In this document: positions 20,178 through 26,828 of the stretch, piece by piece | How the letters are laid out: every line of letters starts with the position of its first letter | Position numbering within the stretch: the first letter of the stretch is position 1 | Position numbers and translations under genes: made by a program | Notes under the pieces: model-generated | Told to the model about the DNA's origin: nothing | Seen by the model: the letters and a program-made list of their open reading frames with translations, nothing else | The model's database searches: none | From: an uncultured Holosporaceae bacterium | GTDB taxonomy: Bacteria; Pseudomonadota; Alphaproteobacteria; Holosporales; Holosporaceae | Assembly: GCA_964560205.1 (NCBI GenBank) | Contig: CAZLKT010000001.1 | Coordinates: 13,733 to 77,732, forward strand | Reading direction: 5' to 3' | Length of the DNA: 64,000 bases

Positions 20178-22772
20178 TTAAATGCAATAACTCATCTCCT
20201 CTCTTTCTTTACCATTACCCTTCCCTGATGCTACTTGCTTTACTCCTGGTTTATCGTCGTCTTTCACCTTCAAGGGATTGGGATCACTAAACCCACCGAG
20301 CCCCATCAATTCTTCTTTTGATCTTTCACCACTCTCTACCATCTCCGCTACTGGTTTGTCTTCTTCTTGCTTTACTCCTCCTTGGTTTATGATCTTTCCC
20401 CCCTCTACCGCCGGACCCTCTTCTTGTTCTACCACCACATCCTCATCTTGGAAACCCTCTAGACTCTTTTGTTCAAATAAAGACTGAACCTTGGGGAGCA
20501 ACATCTCCGCTCCTGGTTTTTTGCCTTCTTCTTGCTTTACTCCTCCTTGGTTTATGATCTTTCCCCCCTCCCCTAGGTTCTCTTCTTGTGCTACCACCTG
20601 ATCCTCATCTTTGAAAATACCTCGTTCGTCTTCTTCAAATAAAGTTGCCAGATAATAGTCTGGATCTGACAGCTGTGACTTCTCTTTCTTCTCTCCCTTT
20701 GGATACTTTTTCTTATACCATTCCCTATTCTCTTTCAACCGTTGCTCTCGCAATTCTTTCTTCTCTTTCAACCGTTGCTCTCGCAATTCTTTCTGCTCTT
20801 GCTGCTTTTGCCGCCTTTCCTCTTGCTGCTTTTGCCCCTTAGGATCATAGTATTCGTCTTCAACATCAGAGTCCTTCCAGTGCTGATCTTTCTTCTCTAT
20901 CCGCCACTTCACATGGTCCAATTCCTGCCTCTTCTCTTCAAATCGTGCGCTTATTTTGTGTCCATATTTTAATAATAAGGCCAGCGTTGCTACTGTTCCT
21001 CCTATCACCATATCAAAATTAGACACCTGCTTCCCATCAAAGAATAGCTTATGACCTAATATACCGCCCAGAGCCGCCTCCATCTTCCAGTTCTTCACTA
21101 ATGAGAGGACGGGGGAGGGGAGGAAACGTGAAAAAAGAGAGCCCTTCATATCAGCTCTCTTCCCCAGTAGCTGCTCATACGGAGGTTGATACAAAGATTC
21201 ATATGAAACGTTTGGATCGCCCTGCCTCTGCTCTACTTCTACACCACTACCCCCCTCTGGCACTTCTTGCTCTACTTCTGCACCACTACCCCCTGGCACT
21301 TCTTGCTCTACTTCTTCATTGAAGGGCTTGTAAACAACACCCGCCTCTTCTATTTCTTGTCTTTCAACATTTTTTTCTAAAAATTCCTCATGCAATTCTT
21401 CTATACCACTACTACCCTTCCCTGGCGCTCCTTCCTCTACTTCTTGTTCGTTTACGACGCCTTCTACCACCCCTTCTTGTTTTAGCGCAATCTCCTTATA
21501 TAGGAAATCCTCTAAATCACTTTGATAGAAAGCAGCAGCATCATTATTAAGCTTAAGTTGAAGTAGTTCATCAGGTAACTTCTGCTTACTGTAGGCATGT
21601 AGCATCGCCACCACTCTAAAAAGTGGAGATAGCCGATCTGGCTTCTCTTTCAGATCTGGCTTCTCTTTCAGATCTGGCTTCTCTTTCAGCTCTGGTTTCT
21701 CTTTCAGCTCTGGCTCCTCTTTCAGCTCTGGCTCCTCTTTCAGCTCTGGCTTCTCTTTCAGCTCTGGCTTCTCTTTCAGCTCTGGCTTCTCTTTCAGCTC
21801 CTCCTTCTTCTCACCCCGCAGCCCCACGTTCTGCTCTTCTTTCTCACCGTTAAAAGAACCCATGCCCACAAACATGTCATCTTCCATTATATTACCAAAG
21901 TCTATTCCTAGAAAGGAGAATGGTCTTGCCACTCCCCAGTTTACCCACTCAAAGATACTAGAAAACAAGCTCTTCACAGGAACAACCTGCTGCTGATGAG
22001 CATTATCATCCTTCTTCTCACCCCTCACTTTTTTTAGAGCATATACTGTTGATAGGATTATCGCGGTGGCTGCTACTCCTCCTAGGGCTAGTGTATATGT
22101 ACTATTCCCTGTAAACCTGTTCAGATAGTTAACAAAATCAGCTACATATCCATCTGTCCCGTTCGAAACAGGTAACTGTCCATTAGTCGTCCCTTCTGTG
22201 CCCACATCGATCCCTTGCTCAACAGATTTCTGTCCATCAGTATTGTCTTCCATCATATGAGTATATGGAAACGCTGTACTTTGCTTTTCCCCAGATACAT
22301 CTTCTGGTACTTGGTTTTGGCTTTGGCTTTGGTTTTCCCCAGGTACTTCGTTTTGGCTTTGGCTTTGGCCTCTGCCTTGCTCTTCTTCTTTATTGCCCCT
22401 TTCAAGCTGTTGAGGTACAAGAAGGTTTTTCAATACTAAACCACCACCACCCAGAACTAAACCAGCAGTCACCGGTACGCCTGGCGCCTCCATCCCTAAT
22501 AATGAGGAGACAAGGGAAGGAGGAGGGGACGTCACAGCTCTTTTTATGTCTCCCTTCACATGCTTCGCTGTTTTGCCAGTTTTCTCCTTACTCCTGCTCC
22601 GTGAAGCCCTATTCTTGGTGCCCTGTTTTCCTCCTTTTACTTGTTTTTGAGGAGTTTGTTTCAGAGGTTTTTTGGTATGGTTATCTCTTCCTCCTGCCGA
22701 CTGCGCCCTTTCTGCATTCGTGCATATAAAAAAAAGTAAAAAAACAATGGAAGTTTTTCGAATACAAGACAT
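20178..22772 (-). CDS. Large secreted/membrane tandem-repeat protein (E/K/Q-rich), unknown function
   Basis: 864 aa. Signal peptide MSCIRKTSIVFLLFFICTNAERAQS. Hydrophobic segments YTLALGGVAATAIILSTVYAL and MVIGGTVATLALLLKYG. At least five internal repeat families: KEKPEL x9, QSQSQN-VP x2, EVEQEVP-GGSG x2, KELREQRLKE x2, and a 54-aa module x2. No family recognised. Confidence 0.8.
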   Translation of the reverse strand: MSCIRKTSIVFLLFFICTNAERAQSAGGRDNHTKKPLKQTPQKQVKGGKQGTKNRASRSRSKEKTGKTAKHVKGDIKRAVTSPPPSLVSSLLGMEAPGVPVTAGLVLGGGGLVLKNLLVPQQLERGNKEEEQGRGQSQSQNEVPGENQSQSQNQVPEDVSGEKQSTAFPYTHMMEDNTDGQKSVEQGIDVGTEGTTNGQLPVSNGTDGYVADFVNYLNRFTGNSTYTLALGGVAATAIILSTVYALKKVRGEKKDDNAHQQQVVPVKSLFSSIFEWVNWGVARPFSFLGIDFGNIMEDDMFVGMGSFNGEKEEQNVGLRGEKKEELKEKPELKEKPELKEKPELKEEPELKEEPELKEKPELKEKPDLKEKPDLKEKPDRLSPLFRVVAMLHAYSKQKLPDELLQLKLNNDAAAFYQSDLEDFLYKEIALKQEGVVEGVVNEQEVEEGAPGKGSSGIEELHEEFLEKNVERQEIEEAGVVYKPFNEEVEQEVPGGSGAEVEQEVPEGGSGVEVEQRQGDPNVSYESLYQPPYEQLLGKRADMKGSLFSRFLPSPVLSLVKNWKMEAALGGILGHKLFFDGKQVSNFDMVIGGTVATLALLLKYGHKISARFEEKRQELDHVKWRIEKKDQHWKDSDVEDEYYDPKGQKQQEERRQKQQEQKELREQRLKEKKELREQRLKENREWYKKKYPKGEKKEKSQLSDPDYYLATLFEEDERGIFKDEDQVVAQEENLGEGGKIINQGGVKQEEGKKPGAEMLLPKVQSLFEQKSLEGFQDEDVVVEQEEGPAVEGGKIINQGGVKQEEDKPVAEMVESGERSKEELMGLGGFSDPNPLKVKDDDKPGVKQVASGKGNGKEREEMSYCI
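20340..20616 (-). repeat. Approximately 115-nt module duplicated with a 162-nt period, inside the 864-aa gene
   Basis: 20340-20455 and 20502-20616 share ...catctccgct-ctggtt...cttcttcttgctttactcctccttggtttatgatctttcccccctc... They encode F(Q/K)DED-VV-QEE...EGGKIINQGGVKQEE-K-(P)-AEM twice. Confidence 0.9.
21635..21798 (-). repeat. In-frame 18-nt tandem repeat, about 9 copies, encoding (K/E)(E)KP(E/D)L hexapeptides
   Basis: The units gatctggcttctctttca and gctctggc(t/c)tctctttca run head to tail. The translation is KEKPELKEKPELKEKPELKEEPELKEEPELKEKPELKEKPDLKEKPDLKEKPD. Confidence 0.95.
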
Positions 22773-23049
22773 AAGCCCTAACCTTTCAAATTAAAAATAC
22801 CTGATATTCATTCTATATGTTTAAACCATCAAAGTCAATAGTAAAAATATATTATTTTTATTTAATATTATATTAATAAAAAAAACTGATGGAATAAGTT
22901 GCAAAGATCATGAAAAAAAATGCACACAACGAAATGAATAACATGCTTTTTGGTCTTTATGGTGGTTTTGCTGATGGAGATGGGAGATTCACACCACAGC
23001 AATAACAATGGCTAAGGCTGCTGCACCCACCATCCAGTTTTCTTTTAAA

Positions 23050-23135
23050 AAGAAAGGAAGGGCGTTACAGGTCTGTTTGTATCTCCACCTGTCACATGTT
23101 TCGCTGTTTTGTCAGTTTTCCCATTTTACACACTC
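23050..23135 (-). pseudogene. Decayed fragment paralogous to the 5' region of the 864-aa repeat-protein gene
   Basis: 23081-23120 (tctccacctgtcacatgtttcgctgttttgtcagttttc) aligns with 22551-22588 (tctcccttcacatgcttcgctgttttgccagttttc), and weaker similarity continues upstream. It translates as NGKTDKTAKHVTGGDTNRPVTPFLSF-stop, against KTGKTAKHVKGDIKRAVTSPPPSL in the intact gene. A stop codon precedes the fragment and another follows it. Confidence 0.55.
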
Positions 23136-23138
23136 CCC

Positions 23139-25001
23139 TCAGAAATAAAGGAATGCCCTCATCTGATCAAAGCGCTCCTTCAAGGAGGTCGTGTTACCAT
23201 AGAACGGCTTGTAGAGGTCTCCAGAACGAAAATTCATAAAGAGATCAGAGCTGCCAACATACTTCATAATATAATACAGATTAGAATACTCCCCTAGGGA
23301 GAGAAGACCGTGGCCTTGTAATTTCTTTCCAATGCTCGATAGGGATTTTTTTTTCGCAAAAACGCTCTGGTCAGTTCCTCGCCGTGGAGTCATGAGAAAT
23401 AAGACGCTCCGACGATCTTGCAGGGTGGACTCCTCTGCAAAAAAGTACTGTAAAAATGGAATATCCCCAAGCAGTGGCACCTTTTTCTTAGATGTTGCAC
23501 GCCAGGTGGAGTTAAGACCACCAATAACCATGGTTTGTCCAAATTTTGCCCTCACCGTATTTGACACGTTGGCTCGTGTAATGGCTATCATTTGGTCATT
23601 GATACCTATATTCATATTAGGCTCTTCAATAAAACGACTTCCTGTTACCATGATTTCTATGGTGACATAATCCCCATCAATTTCCAATGGAGTGATTTCC
23701 ACCTTTGATCCTGTATCCATATCAATAATACCTGATCCACTGGACCCAGAAGACGTTCCAATGTAGTTTCTTCCACTATAGAAGCTTGCTGTTTTACCAA
23801 GAACAGTGAAAACCGATGGACGATCAATCACCTCTATGCGTCTTTTCTGCACATTGGCAATGTTCAAATTGTATGCCATCACCACAGGAGTAATGGCAAA
23901 ATTAAAAGCCTGAGTCCAACCTTTGGTGATCTCCTCATTGGCAGAAGTTATGGTTCTTGTGAGTGCTACCAAAGGGTTTGTTCCCCCCAATGTCACTGCC
24001 AGTTTTTCCAAAATATTGTTTCCTTTTTGTGTCATCTCCTCCTCAGAAACATGCAACGTGCAGAAATCAACACCAATGGAACACTCCTCTTCTGGAGATG
24101 GTCGTCTTTCTTGTGGAGGAGGAAAATCATGAGGAGGACGCGCCTGCGGTCGTTCTTGAGTTTCCATCTGTGGTTCTTGAATGGATTGTTCTTGCTCATG
24201 TACGTCTTCTTGAGAATCCAGAGATTCTGGCCCTTCTTCGTCATCATCTCCCTGGACCGGCCTTATGGAAGCATGATTATGGAACGTCCCCCAATCAGAG
24301 ACCCTTTTTTGAAGCTGATCCACATCAGAGTACTCCTTGGGCACAAGATTTCTATACTTTTTCACATAATTCCCTGCCTCCTGAGGTTTATTACATGCAG
24401 CATAAATCAGGGCAGCGGCTCGAACCTTTTTTGCATCCTCTGAGGAGAGTTTGAGGGACTGACGAATGGCTGCCGTGGCTGCAGGAAGATCCCCCACGTA
24501 ATAAGACGCATAGGCCAACGCATAAAGTATCTCCGGATCATTGGAGCGAAGACAAAAAGCATCATAGAGATTTTTTTGGGCATCATGATATCGCCCCACA
24601 CGAATTTCATGCATACCCAGAAGATATGATCCCACCCAATTTGATGGATCTGCAGTTTTTGCTGCTTGATAAGCTACACCCGCTAACTCCGGACTGCTGT
24701 CATAACCATTCTGCGCCATGGTCTCATAGACAAGACCGTTGAGGATATGAAGTGTGGAGCTTTTCACAGAAGATTGCAAAGCAACATTAATGTACTGAGA
24801 TGCTGCCCTCAGCTCACCATTGTCAATTTTGTCCCTCAGTGCATCCATGGAAAAATGGGGAGGCAAATCACTATTTGCGCCATGTATCAAAGCAACTTTT
24901 TTTGATATCTCCTCATGCTGACTTCTTTTATCATGACATCCATAGAACAGACAAGAGAAACAAAGTATAGGAAAAAGAGATATGTGTATATTTTTCATCA
25001 T
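23139..25001 (-). CDS. Lipoprotein with an N-terminal TPR-like domain fused to a C-terminal secretin domain (paralog A)
   Basis: 620 aa. Lipobox-like CLFYGC-HDK. TPR-like helices (EILYALAYASYYVGDLPAATAAIRQSLKL). Acidic/Pro linker. Secretin signature GQTMVIGGLNSTWRATSKKKVPLLGDIPFLQYFFAEESTLQDRRSVLFLMTPR. Terminal FLYF. GGAGGAGG SD upstream. Confidence 0.8.
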   Translation of the reverse strand: MMKNIHISLFPILCFSCLFYGCHDKRSQHEEISKKVALIHGANSDLPPHFSMDALRDKIDNGELRAASQYINVALQSSVKSSTLHILNGLVYETMAQNGYDSSPELAGVAYQAAKTADPSNWVGSYLLGMHEIRVGRYHDAQKNLYDAFCLRSNDPEILYALAYASYYVGDLPAATAAIRQSLKLSSEDAKKVRAAALIYAACNKPQEAGNYVKKYRNLVPKEYSDVDQLQKRVSDWGTFHNHASIRPVQGDDDEEGPESLDSQEDVHEQEQSIQEPQMETQERPQARPPHDFPPPQERRPSPEEECSIGVDFCTLHVSEEEMTQKGNNILEKLAVTLGGTNPLVALTRTITSANEEITKGWTQAFNFAITPVVMAYNLNIANVQKRRIEVIDRPSVFTVLGKTASFYSGRNYIGTSSGSSGSGIIDMDTGSKVEITPLEIDGDYVTIEIMVTGSRFIEEPNMNIGINDQMIAITRANVSNTVRAKFGQTMVIGGLNSTWRATSKKKVPLLGDIPFLQYFFAEESTLQDRRSVLFLMTPRRGTDQSVFAKKKSLSSIGKKLQGHGLLSLGEYSNLYYIMKYVGSSDLFMNFRSGDLYKPFYGNTTSLKERFDQMRAFLYF

Positions 25002-25016
25002 GCACTCCTCCTCCCA

Positions 25017-26828
25017 TTAAAAATAAAGAAACTTGGCAATTTGCTCTAATTTATCCTCCAAAGAGCCTCCTGTGGACCCCCAAAAAGGAGGAATCATATC
25101 CCCACTTCGAAAATTATGAAAGAGAGGATTTTCTTCTAGGTGTCGAAGAATAGTGTATACAGTGTGCCGTTCTCCTATGGACATAACACCATGATCTCTC
25201 AGTTTTTGCGCATTGGAGGACAGTGTGTACAGACTTTTTTTCTTTTTCTTTTTGTGAGACTCCCACCGTGGAGAAATAAGGAAAATGGTATTTCTTGTGT
25301 CGCTGTTCGTGGAATTGGATGCAAAAAAGTATTGTACAACAGGAAGATCCTTCAAAAGCGGAGTACCATACTCATGTGCATGCTGAGCAACGGAGTTGAT
25401 ACCACCGATAAAAATCGTTTCACCAGATCTGGCCTTCACCGTGGTAGAAAGCTTTACTTTTCCTAAACTTAAAAGTTGTGTTGTGATGCCTTTTATAACA
25501 TCTGGCTCTTTCAAAAATGTACTGTCCTCAAGGGTAATGTTCAAGGTTAGTACATCATCCTCATCAATAGAAACAGGTAAAATCTTCACATTGGTACCAG
25601 AACTTACAGACGCCACCGTTGATCCTGTAATACCTGCAGTGGCCCCAGTATACTGATCTCCTTCTAAAAAATGTGTTGGTGTGCCCAAAAGTGTGGTCAC
25701 CGTAGGACGAGAAAGAAGCTCCACCGTATCCACATCCACATTGGCAATATTTAAGCTGTACGCTAAGTTCGAAGAGTTCGCGGAAAAAGCAAAATTTTGG
25801 GTCCATCCTCCCGTAATGGCCCCCCCTTTATTTTCTCTGTCTCGGCTAAGGTCCACATAAGGTAATGTGGTCTTCTCCCCGCCCATGGAAATTCTCAGGG
25901 AATCCAAAATATTCTGCCCCATGCTGGTAAAAGTTGTTTGTGTGGACGTCAGCAAATAACAATCAAAAGTGATCACCTGAGCATGCTTTCTTTGCTGATC
26001 ATCTGGTGAGGGTAGCGGCTGTGGCTGGTCATCAGAGAACTCACCCTCCTCTCCCTGAACATTTTCAAAAAAAGCGGTATTGGTGTGAAGCCTTTTCCAA
26101 TCCGCAATTCTTTCTTGCACCATGACCACATCTGCATCATTGCCTTTCATAGCACTTTTATACGCCACAAAAGACGCTTCACTTTGAGTAAAATCCGAAC
26201 ATGCCGCTGATATAATGGCACATGCCCTATGAAAAAGAGCATTCTTCGGCTCCAACGCCACAGCTTTTTGAATGCTCTCACATGCCAAATGAAGATCCCT
26301 TACATAATAGGACGCACATGCTAAGGCATACAAAATTTCTGGTTTTTCTGGGCGAAGGATGAGAGCATTAACCAAATAATCCTGTGCCTTCTGATATTGT
26401 TTTTTCTGAAGCGAATAGCATCCATATAAATAGGCATAAAGCCATTTAGAGGGATCAAGGGTACAAGCCGAACTGTACGCAACGCCTGCAAGCTCCTCAC
26501 ATGTTTCATCACCCCGTCGCGCTCTTTCTTCGTAAATAATGCCATTGATGACGTGTAAGGCTGGAAAATTCACACTGATCTGGAGGGCCTGATTCACAAT
26601 ATGCGACGCCTCCTTCAAATTTCCCCTTCTTATAGACTCTTTTAACTTTTCTAAAGGAAAATATGTGGGAAGATCGAAGTGCTCTTTGGAAAGCCTTGTT
26701 AAGATGTCCCTCTTTTCAAAAAGTCCTTCTCCCCCCAAACTATTCGTAGAAGCAGACTCCTTGTCATGACAAGCACATAGAAAAATACTACAGAGAGAAA
26801 GAACCTTGGCATAATCTTTATTTTTCAT
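25017..26828 (-). CDS. Lipoprotein with an N-terminal TPR-like domain fused to a C-terminal secretin domain (paralog B)
   Basis: 603 aa with the same architecture as paralog A. SIFLCAC-HDK lipobox, EILYALACASYYVRDLHLACESIQKAVAL, GETIFIGGINSVAQHAHEYGTPLLKDLPVVQYFFASNSTNSDTRNTIFLISPR, terminal FLYF. It ends 15 nt upstream of paralog A. Confidence 0.8.
   Translation of the reverse strand: MKNKDYAKVLSLCSIFLCACHDKESASTNSLGGEGLFEKRDILTRLSKEHFDLPTYFPLEKLKESIRRGNLKEASHIVNQALQISVNFPALHVINGIIYEERARRGDETCEELAGVAYSSACTLDPSKWLYAYLYGCYSLQKKQYQKAQDYLVNALILRPEKPEILYALACASYYVRDLHLACESIQKAVALEPKNALFHRACAIISAACSDFTQSEASFVAYKSAMKGNDADVVMVQERIADWKRLHTNTAFFENVQGEEGEFSDDQPQPLPSPDDQQRKHAQVITFDCYLLTSTQTTFTSMGQNILDSLRISMGGEKTTLPYVDLSRDRENKGGAITGGWTQNFAFSANSSNLAYSLNIANVDVDTVELLSRPTVTTLLGTPTHFLEGDQYTGATAGITGSTVASVSSGTNVKILPVSIDEDDVLTLNITLEDSTFLKEPDVIKGITTQLLSLGKVKLSTTVKARSGETIFIGGINSVAQHAHEYGTPLLKDLPVVQYFFASNSTNSDTRNTIFLISPRWESHKKKKKKSLYTLSSNAQKLRDHGVMSIGERHTVYTILRHLEENPLFHNFRSGDMIPPFWGSTGGSLEDKLEQIAKFLYF

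What the first reader, a model, noticed from the sequence alone, without database searches (positions are those of the whole stretch)
20178..22772. 864-aa signal-peptide protein assembled from at least five tandem-repeat families
After a Sec-type signal peptide and a Lys-rich stretch, the protein alternates short hydrophobic segments with long, highly charged E/K/Q/G-rich regions. It carries KEKPEL x9, QSQSQN(E/Q)VP x2, EVEQEVP(E)GGSG x2, KELREQRLKE x2, and a 54-aa module containing EGGKIINQGGVKQEE x2. I recognise no catalytic or known domain. Architecturally it resembles the acidic tandem-repeat surface and effector proteins of intracellular alphaproteobacteria. It lies directly downstream of, and co-directional with, the secretin pair.
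Basis: partly seen in the sequence, partly recalled or inferred. Interest (0 to 1): 0.6.

Follow-up and report, generated by a model that had tools for sequence, protein, structure and literature searches.

The report
Orphan exported repeat protein, symbiont-specific family
The 864-residue repeat protein is a real, intact gene with no relatives outside its own genome; it is one of a dozen or more proteins in this small symbiont-like bacterium that share an unusual export-and-anchor front end, so it probably works at the bacterial envelope or the host interface.

Summary
An intact 864-codon ORF lies on the MINUS strand at 20178-22772. It has a Sec-type signal peptide, a 68-residue polybasic stretch (net +15), three hydrophobic helices and all five repeat families.

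No Pfam, NCBIfam, PDB or Foldseek match was found. An exhaustive HMMER search of 1.84 billion proteins matched only the low-complexity KEKPEL array. The AF2 model is mostly low-confidence.

The genome is 0.93 Mb and belongs to the same order as Ca. Hydrogenosomobacter endosymbioticus (Holosporales).

The new point is that the protein is not a singleton by design. One true paralogue (contig C28) shares its promoter and N-terminus. At least 12-15 ORFs in this genome share the same front-end cassette: signal peptide, polybasic tail (+13 to +20), G/A-rich helix near residue 100, an acidic loop that usually carries tandem repeats, then a TM helix near residues 220-280 with a basic flank. A profile of the signal-peptide-plus-polybasic leaders hits 23 places here and nothing credible in 21 other genomes of the order.

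The link to the secretin pair is positional only. The gene has its own promoter-like site, and six relatives have unrelated genes at that position.

Best reading: a Sec-exported, membrane-anchored, fast-evolving envelope or host-interface protein. Its function is untested.

The parts
20178..22772 (-). Intact 864-aa ORF (P0001), including the stop codon
22810..22838 (-). Sigma-70-like promoter TTGACT-17-TAGAAT (10/12), about 38 nt upstream of the ATG. It lies inside a ~75-nt stretch that is 85% identical to the upstream region of the paralogue on contig C28.
22707..22772 (-). Sec-type signal peptide, aa 1-22 (MSCIRKTSIVFLLFFICTNA|ER). There is no lipobox.
   Evidence: inspection
22503..22706 (-). 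Polybasic tail, aa 23-90 (18 K/R, 3 D/E, net +15)
22416..22502 (-). H1: Gly/Ala-rich, weakly hydrophobic helix, aa 91-119 (..VTAGLVLGGGGLVLKNLLV)
22098..22415 (-). Acidic, Q-rich linker, aa 120-225 (net -11), containing QSQSQN(E/Q)VP x2
22035..22097 (-). H2: the strongest transmembrane helix, aa 226-246 (LALGGVAATAIILSTVYAL), followed by the basic flank KKVRGEKK
21637..21800 (-). 18-nt x9.1 in-frame array encoding (KE[KE]P[ED]L)n, 96% matches
21229..21315 (-). 36-nt x2.3 array encoding EVEQEVP(E)GGSG
20961..21020 (-). H3: third, marginal hydrophobic helix, aa 585-604 (MVIGGTVATLALLL), followed by a basic flank
20673..20960 (-). Long charged helix, aa 605-700. It is the only part of the AF2 model with pLDDT 60-91 and contains KELREQRLKE x2 (33-nt array at 20728-20800).
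20340..20644 (-). 162-nt x1.9 array: the 54/55-aa acidic module with the identical core EGGKIINQGGVKQEE
23055..23120 (-). Relic of a second copy of the front end: 67 nt, 82% identical to codons ~63-84 of the gene (window 22521-22584), broken by stops and followed out of frame by a TM-like stretch
23139..26828 (-). Context only: two tandem TPR + secretin lipoprotein genes (P0002 at 23139-25001; P0003 at 25017-26828)

Best explanation
P0001 is a genuine gene that appears confined to this genome's genus. It encodes a Sec-exported, mostly disordered protein anchored in a membrane.

Its first ~250 residues form a cassette: a cleavable signal peptide, a ~65-residue polybasic tail, a weak Gly/Ala-rich helix H1, an acidic repeat-bearing loop of ~100 residues, and a strong TM helix H2 with a basic flank. 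The same genome attaches this cassette to at least a dozen otherwise unrelated C-terminal regions, up to 2,901 aa long.

I read the cassette as the functional core. It provides export plus a helical-hairpin or single-span anchor at the envelope or host interface. The rest of P0001 is an extended charged spacer or stalk: the KEKPEL array, the EVEQ array, helix H3, a ~95-residue helix and the 54-aa modules. Its near-identical in-frame DNA repeats allow rapid changes in length.

Shown: the gene is intact; it has no homologues elsewhere; a paralogue and a relic exist; the cassette recurs in the genome and is absent from relatives; synteny with the secretins is not conserved.

Inferred: export, topology, surface or host-interface location, and repeat-length variation.
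For: Intact ORF with start context and a promoter-like site.

No domain, structure or homologue anywhere:
- Pfam and NCBIfam;
- word-indexed search of 5.8 billion proteins;
- 40 related genomes;
- GTDB representative genomes and JGI metagenomes;
- exhaustive phmmer against 1.84 billion proteins, where all 18 hits fall on residues 306-393, the KEKPEL array, in unrelated repeat proteins;
- PDB by sequence;
- Foldseek against PDB, best E 1.4.

AF2 single-sequence model: 731 of 864 residues have pLDDT <50; only helix 605-700 is confident.

Paralogue on C28: 36-39% identity over residues 1-112, the same architecture, and ~85% identical promoter DNA. Relic copy in the spacer.

Cassette members with H1 at 86-117 and H2 at 219-282; tail net +13 to +20; loop net -8 to -20 in 7 of 10; K/R directly after H2.

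The leader profile finds 23 places in the own genome and none credible in 21 genomes of the order.

Crude insertion energies place H2 among the good TM helices of SecF and PotH, and H1 and H3 among the marginal ones.

The order contains obligate protist endosymbionts. In Holospora, genus-specific exported periplasmic proteins are released to the host (PMC9866348; bioRxiv 10.64898/2026.10.08.757700).
Against: The signal peptide and TM helices were called from hydropathy and inspection only.

The cassette members fall into at least three sequence clusters that HMMER does not link to P0001 and C28. The 'family' is therefore defined by architecture and charge pattern, and could be convergent.

The charge pattern (+ tail, - loop, + flank) fits the positive-inside rule only if the tail stays on the cis side. 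That conflicts with a canonical N-in signal peptide in the bacterial inner membrane, so the real topology and the target membrane are unresolved.

Only one genome of the genus is available, so selection could not be measured.
Confidence: 0.55

Rival explanations
1. It is a cargo of the adjacent TPR-secretin pair. After Sec export, the protein (and the other polybasic-leader proteins) would be passed through the secretins, powered by the GspE/GspF-like machine, into the host. There the H1/H2 hairpin would insert into a host membrane with both basic flanks facing the host cytosol, like a Sec-dependent version of the chlamydial Inc proteins.
For: The gene is co-directional with and immediately downstream of the secretins, and no terminator-like site was found in the spacer.

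The genome keeps a GspE-like ATPase, a GspF-like platform protein and an A24 prepilin peptidase. Other cassette genes lie within ~5-8 kb of gspE/F on C14.

The charge pattern of the hairpin fits insertion from outside the bacterial cytoplasm. H1 and H3 are only marginally hydrophobic.
Against: The secretin pair is conserved across the family and order, but the downstream gene is different in all six relatives inspected.

P0001 has its own promoter-like site, shared with a paralogue that sits elsewhere.

H2 is hydrophobic enough to act as a stop-transfer anchor in the inner membrane. T2SS substrates are normally folded soluble proteins.

No pseudopilin motif was found.
Confidence: 0.17
2. It is a bacterial envelope scaffold: an inner-membrane-anchored protein whose proline- and charge-rich repeats span the periplasm, working like TolA or TonB as a spacer or tether and not as a host-directed factor.
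For: (KEKPEL)9 resembles the Glu-Pro/Lys-Pro rigid spacer of TonB and the Lys/Glu-rich helix of TolA (my own knowledge of those proteins). There is a strong TM helix with a basic flank and a long confident helix at 605-700.
Against: No TonB_C, TolA or any other domain was found. The protein has a cleavable-looking signal peptide where those proteins have an N-terminal anchor.

The gene is absent from every other genome of the family and order, which is not expected of a housekeeping envelope part. It also belongs to a multigene, repeat-variable class.
Confidence: 0.12
3. It is a decaying or functionless ORF: a remnant of duplication and repeat expansion that is no longer used.
For: It is an orphan. 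It is made of low-complexity and recently duplicated segments. A broken relic copy lies next to it. There is no expression evidence.
Against: All 864 codons are open, with a start codon, a purine-rich SD-like stretch and a 10/12 promoter match.

The architecture and charge pattern are kept in many paralogous or analogous genes that have diverged beyond sequence recognition. That argues for constraint. A 0.93-Mb reduced genome rarely keeps ~4% junk coding capacity.
Confidence: 0.05

Closest known systems
Holospora obtusa exported periplasmic proteins (89-kDa invasion-tip protein; 63-kDa PRP1)
   Same: They come from the same order of alphaproteobacterial protist symbionts and are genus-specific with no outside homologues. 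They have an N-terminal hydrophobic export or anchor segment, a low-complexity N-terminal module and a long helical C-terminal part. They are exported and released toward the host (bioRxiv 10.64898/2026.10.08.757700; PMC9866348).
   Different: There is no sequence similarity: the exhaustive search found nothing. Those proteins have no polybasic tail, no H1/H2 hairpin and no tandem repeat arrays of this kind. The 89-kDa protein is largely a well-folded helical solenoid, whereas P0001 is modelled as mostly disordered.
Ehrlichia/Anaplasma tandem-repeat proteins (TRP32/47/120)
   Same: They are acidic, disordered, tandem-repeat proteins of intracellular alphaproteobacteria and are lineage-specific and fast-evolving (my own knowledge).
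   Different: TRPs lack a Sec signal peptide and TM helices and leave the cell by type I secretion. P0001 has both, and shows no homology to them.
Chlamydial inclusion-membrane (Inc) proteins
   Same: They have two hydrophobic helices with both flanks predicted on the same side, variable C-terminal domains, and form a large lineage-specific family defined by architecture, not by sequence (my own knowledge).
   Different: In Inc proteins the two helices are separated by a short loop (the bilobed domain), and export is by type III secretion without a Sec signal. In P0001 the loop is ~100 acidic residues and the N-terminus is a Sec-type signal peptide.
TonB / TolA periplasm-spanning proteins
   Same: They combine a membrane anchor with an extended Pro/Glu/Lys-rich spacer.
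   Different: P0001 has no TonB_C or TolA domain, has a signal peptide where they have an N-terminal anchor, and is not conserved in relatives.

Membership tests
Ehrlichia/Anaplasma TRP effectors | Detectable homology to TRP proteins | tested here: not met
   No true homologue in 1.84 billion representatives, 5.8 billion clusters or Pfam/NCBIfam
Ehrlichia/Anaplasma TRP effectors | No N-terminal Sec signal; type I secretion signal at the C-terminus | tested here: not met
   A canonical-looking Sec signal peptide is present. The C-terminal signal is not testable.
Chlamydial Inc proteins | Bilobed hydrophobic domain (two TM helices separated by a short loop) | tested here: not met
   H1 and H2 are ~110 residues apart
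TonB/TolA family | C-terminal TonB_C or TolA domain and an N-terminal signal-anchor | tested here: not met
   No Pfam/NCBIfam match at E<=0.1
Autotransporter / Sca-type surface proteins | C-terminal beta-barrel translocator domain | tested here: not met
   No domain match. The C-terminus is acidic, repeat-rich and modelled as disordered.
Holospora 89-kDa / PRP1 families | Sequence homology to the Holospora proteins | tested here: not met
   The exhaustive phmmer search returned only repeat-array hits. The paper reports the family as Holospora-only.
Type II secretion substrates | Sec or Tat signal peptide | tested here: met
   Signal-peptide-like N-terminus; judged by inspection only
Type II secretion substrates | Demonstrated dependence on the secretin/GspE machine | not testable with these tools
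   GspE/F-like genes, an A24 peptidase and secretins are present, but there is no functional evidence and no conserved linkage
In-genome 'polybasic-leader cassette' class (defined here) | Signal peptide, then >=25% K/R over residues 26-90 with few D/E | tested here: met
   P0001 has K/R 0.28 and D/E 0.05. 23-27 ORFs qualify. The profile hits 23 own-genome places.
In-genome 'polybasic-leader cassette' class (defined here) | H1 near residue 100, acidic loop, H2 near 220-280 with a basic flank | tested here: met
   P0001 has H1 at 98, H2 at 227, loop net -10 and flank KKVRGEKK. The same pattern is seen in 9 other members.
In-genome 'polybasic-leader cassette' class (defined here) | Common descent (sequence homology) of all members | tested here: inconclusive
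   P0001 links only to C28. The other members form two further weakly linked clusters.

The most novel reading that the evidence does not exclude
The cassette (signal peptide, polybasic tail, H1, acidic repeat loop, H2) is an undescribed export and membrane-insertion module. Under this reading, a Holosporales-like symbiont uses it to deliver a dozen or more proteins of up to 2,901 aa out of the periplasm, possibly through the T2SS-like GspE/F machine and the TPR-secretins. The proteins would be planted as hairpins in a host or outer membrane with the polybasic tail and the variable C-terminal domain facing the host. This would be a Sec-dependent functional analogue of chlamydial Inc proteins, and P0001 would be one such host-facing protein.
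Probability: 0.15. Interest if true: 0.8.

Novelty: new variant of a known kind. Interest (0 to 1): 0.45.

Why it matters
Reduced genomes of intracellular symbionts keep little that is not used. Here about 4% of the coding capacity goes to proteins built on one front-end design that is seen nowhere else in the order.

If that cassette is a targeting and anchoring device, it would give a sequence-level handle for listing the host-interface proteins of an uncultured symbiont lineage. It would also give a way to test what the widespread, unexplained TPR-secretins export.

Taken alone, P0001 is an orphan repeat protein of the sort common in such bacteria. Its value lies in being the entry point to that class.

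Tried and rejected
- Plus-strand reading of the coordinates gives only stops; the gene is on the minus strand.
- The word-indexed homology search found nothing, probably because it was swamped by low-complexity words.
- The look-up of encoding contigs for P0001 returned nothing.
- Scans of genome contigs and metagenome contigs with P0001 returned nothing.
- The genome-contig scan with the secretin returned only an unrelated Omnitrophota hit, which was useless for taxonomy. Taxonomy came from cluster look-ups of relatives' proteins instead.
- Foldseek on the low-confidence AF2 model returned only meaningless ribosomal-helix hits with E>1.
- jackhmmer from the first 330 residues converged on P0001 plus C28 only.
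- A search for the shared promoter motif across the genome found it only at P0001 and, duplicated, at C28. It is therefore not a regulon-wide motif.
- Regex scans for class III prepilin signals found none.
- A self-BLAST for internal duplications beyond the tandem arrays printed nothing usable.
- I considered a lipoprotein reading and rejected it: FFIC is not a lipobox, and the paralogue has no Cys at that position.
Full report
**Observation.** The coordinates are right but the gene is on the minus strand; the plus strand is full of stops. The ORF has 864 codons and an ATG start, with only five more open codons upstream. It is preceded by a purine-rich AAAGG stretch. A TTGACT-17-TAGAAT promoter-like site (10/12) lies about 38 nt upstream.

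- (KE[KE]P[ED]L): 8 full units plus a partial one, 18-nt unit, 96% matches;
- QSQSQN(E/Q)VP x2;
- EVEQEVP(E)GGSG x2-3;
- KELREQRLKE x2, with 30 identical nucleotides;
- a 54/55-aa module x2, with a 45-nt identical core.

The N-terminus looks like a canonical Sec signal peptide. Residues 23-90 are polybasic, with 18 K/R against 3 D/E. Hydrophobic helices lie at about 91-119 (H1), 226-246 (H2) and 585-604 (H3).

**No known relatives.**
- Pfam and NCBIfam give nothing at E<=0.1.
- The word-indexed search of 5.8 billion clusters gives nothing.
- An exhaustive phmmer pass over 1.84 billion representatives gives 18 hits, none better than 5e-8. All of them fall on residues 306-393, the KEKPEL array, in plainly unrelated repeat proteins.
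- PDB by sequence gives nothing.
- A single-sequence AF2 model has mean pLDDT 40.9, with only the helix at 605-700 confident. Its Foldseek matches are meaningless, with E>1.
- Forty related genomes, the GTDB representative contigs and the JGI metagenomes hold no relative.

**The organism.** The genome is 0.93 Mb in 35 contigs and 93.7% complete. One genome of the same order is Candidatus Hydrogenosomobacter endosymbioticus, which NCBI places in Holosporales. One genome of the same family is the MAG 'Alphaproteobacteria bacterium 40-19'. This is therefore a reduced, symbiont-type alphaproteobacterium.

**Relation to the secretins.** The two upstream genes are TPR + secretin lipoproteins, and they are conserved through the family and order. 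The gene after them is not conserved. I inspected six relatives, covering all four other genera of the family plus one genome from another family of the order. At that position they carry a cvpA-like gene, proS, a HAD phosphatase (twice), an alpha/beta hydrolase and a hybrid histidine kinase.

The 366-nt spacer holds two notable features:
- the promoter-like site, inside ~75 nt that are 85% identical to the DNA upstream of a paralogue on contig C28;
- a 67-nt relic, 82% identical to codons ~63-84 of the gene itself.

No terminator-like site was seen in the spacer, so read-through cannot be excluded. Even so, the linkage looks positional and not operonic.

**The family.** The own genome holds one true paralogue, at C28:2519-3667 and cut by the contig end. 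It is 36-39% identical over residues 1-112 and has the same layout.

Scanning all ORFs for the design 'signal peptide, then >=25% K/R over residues 26-90' found 23-27 genes in about 19 BLAST-unrelated groups. A profile built from 16 such leaders hits 23 places in this genome. In the 21 other genomes of the order it hits nothing credible: only two weak matches, both broken by stop codons, in one genome.

Within this set, at least 12-15 proteins share the fuller cassette seen in P0001: a tail of net +13 to +20; a Gly/Ala-rich H1 at residues 86-117, often preceded by Trp; a loop of 90-175 residues that is usually acidic (-8 to -20 in 7 of 10) and usually carries its own tandem repeats; then H2 at residues 219-282, followed directly by K/R. 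Members reach 1,472, 1,765 and 2,901 aa. Several are cut by contig ends, and one is cut by a 100-N gap.

Sequence methods link these members into three clusters only: P0001+C28; C17b/C20a/C20b/C16/C29; and C6_0/C15_0/C32_0/C33/C17a. Common descent of all members is therefore plausible but not shown. Their C-terminal parts are also orphans, apart from collagen repeats in one polybasic-leader protein and a weak thioester-domain hit in the 2,901-aa member.

**How it probably works.** The canonical signal peptide is followed by a short neutral or acidic buffer before the basic run. This argues for Sec export. I summed Hessa-scale insertion energies, with the scale values taken from memory. These crude sums put H2 (+0.6) among the good TM helices of this genome's SecF and PotH. 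H1 (+4.5) and H3 (+5.0) fall among the marginal ones.

The simplest model is a membrane-anchored protein whose long charged, repeat-built segments act as extended spacers. The near-identical in-frame repeats would allow changes in length.

The conserved charge pattern (+ tail, - loop, + flank) is what the positive-inside rule predicts for a hairpin with both flanks on the cis side. That does not fit an N-in signal peptide in the bacterial inner membrane. This leaves two possibilities open. The hairpin may be meant for another membrane, which is the novel case. Or long loops may simply escape the rule.

The genome retains a GspE-like ATPase, a GspF-like platform protein and an A24 peptidase, and further cassette genes sit near gspE/F on C14. 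A secretin-dependent route is therefore possible but unsupported by conservation.

[quoted passage not shown] These are released toward the host. P0001 shares no sequence with them, and the architecture differs.

P0001 is not a member of the Ehrlichia TRP, Inc, TonB/TolA or autotransporter families. In each case a defining feature was tested and not met.

By itself the gene is a new variant of a familiar kind, the lineage-specific repeat proteins of intracellular bacteria. The cassette class it reveals is the more interesting result and deserves follow-up.

Noticed in passing
Own genome G000, e.g. C1:104137-106060, C1:122886-126151, C2:66646-67972, C4:38859-39761, C22:110-661 (outside the window): 23-27 ORFs carry a signal peptide followed by a 40-80-aa polybasic run, some with classical NLS-like strings such as PKRKV or KKKKRP. 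A profile of these leaders finds none in 21 other genomes of the order. This may be a lineage-specific secondary targeting signal.
   Followed up: partly
G000 contig C14:10110-15418 (L042:1111-6419): A GspE/PilB-like ATPase (T2SSE + MshEN) and a GspF-like protein sit in a row with three orphan ORFs. About 1-8 kb away lies a cluster of signal-peptide orphan genes, including two cassette members. An A24 prepilin peptidase is at C2:45191-45484. No classical prepilin motif was found.
   Followed up: partly
G000 C28:2376-2518 (L002/L043) versus window 22787-22885: The promoter-bearing AT-rich segment (AATATATTTTTANTATTGACTTT) is shared by P0001 and its paralogue and is tandemly duplicated in C28. 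The upstream DNA is more conserved (~85%) than the coding sequence (~36% aa), which suggests gene conversion or a constrained regulatory element.
   Followed up: partly
G000 C17:4512-13217 and C17:13596-18893; C20:1-7204: Adjacent giant cassette proteins (2,901 and 1,765 aa; 1,472 and 824 aa). The 2,901-aa one has a weak thioester-domain (PF08341) hit: 27.7 bits against a cut-off of 22, with no single stretch passing.
   Followed up: no
G000 C6:28332-30479: A polybasic-leader protein with collagen triple-helix repeats (PF01391, E 9e-33).
   Followed up: no
G000 C16:2473-7327, C10:31558-32391, C8:35252-36175, C28:1-2126: A second expanded family of signal-peptide proteins (MKKISYCVFFLCAV... / MKKRVYHVLFLCAV...) with ~40% E+K+D+Q and no TM helices.
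   Followed up: no
G000 C14:22546-22645: A 100-N scaffold gap interrupts a cassette gene inside its EIKDDQDDE repeat array. Many family members end at contig ends, so the family is probably under-counted and partly mis-assembled.
   Followed up: no
L028:13602-16334 (relative G002, 'Alphaproteobacteria bacterium 40-19'): Two leucine-rich-repeat proteins with signal peptides lie about 7 kb downstream of the secretin pair in a same-family genome. These are eukaryote-like repeat proteins typical of protist symbionts.
   Followed up: no
window 22265-22729 (+): A 154-aa antisense ORF inside the gene. It is most likely a shadow of the purine-rich coding strand (GC skew -0.35, AT skew -0.27 on the plus strand).
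   Followed up: no
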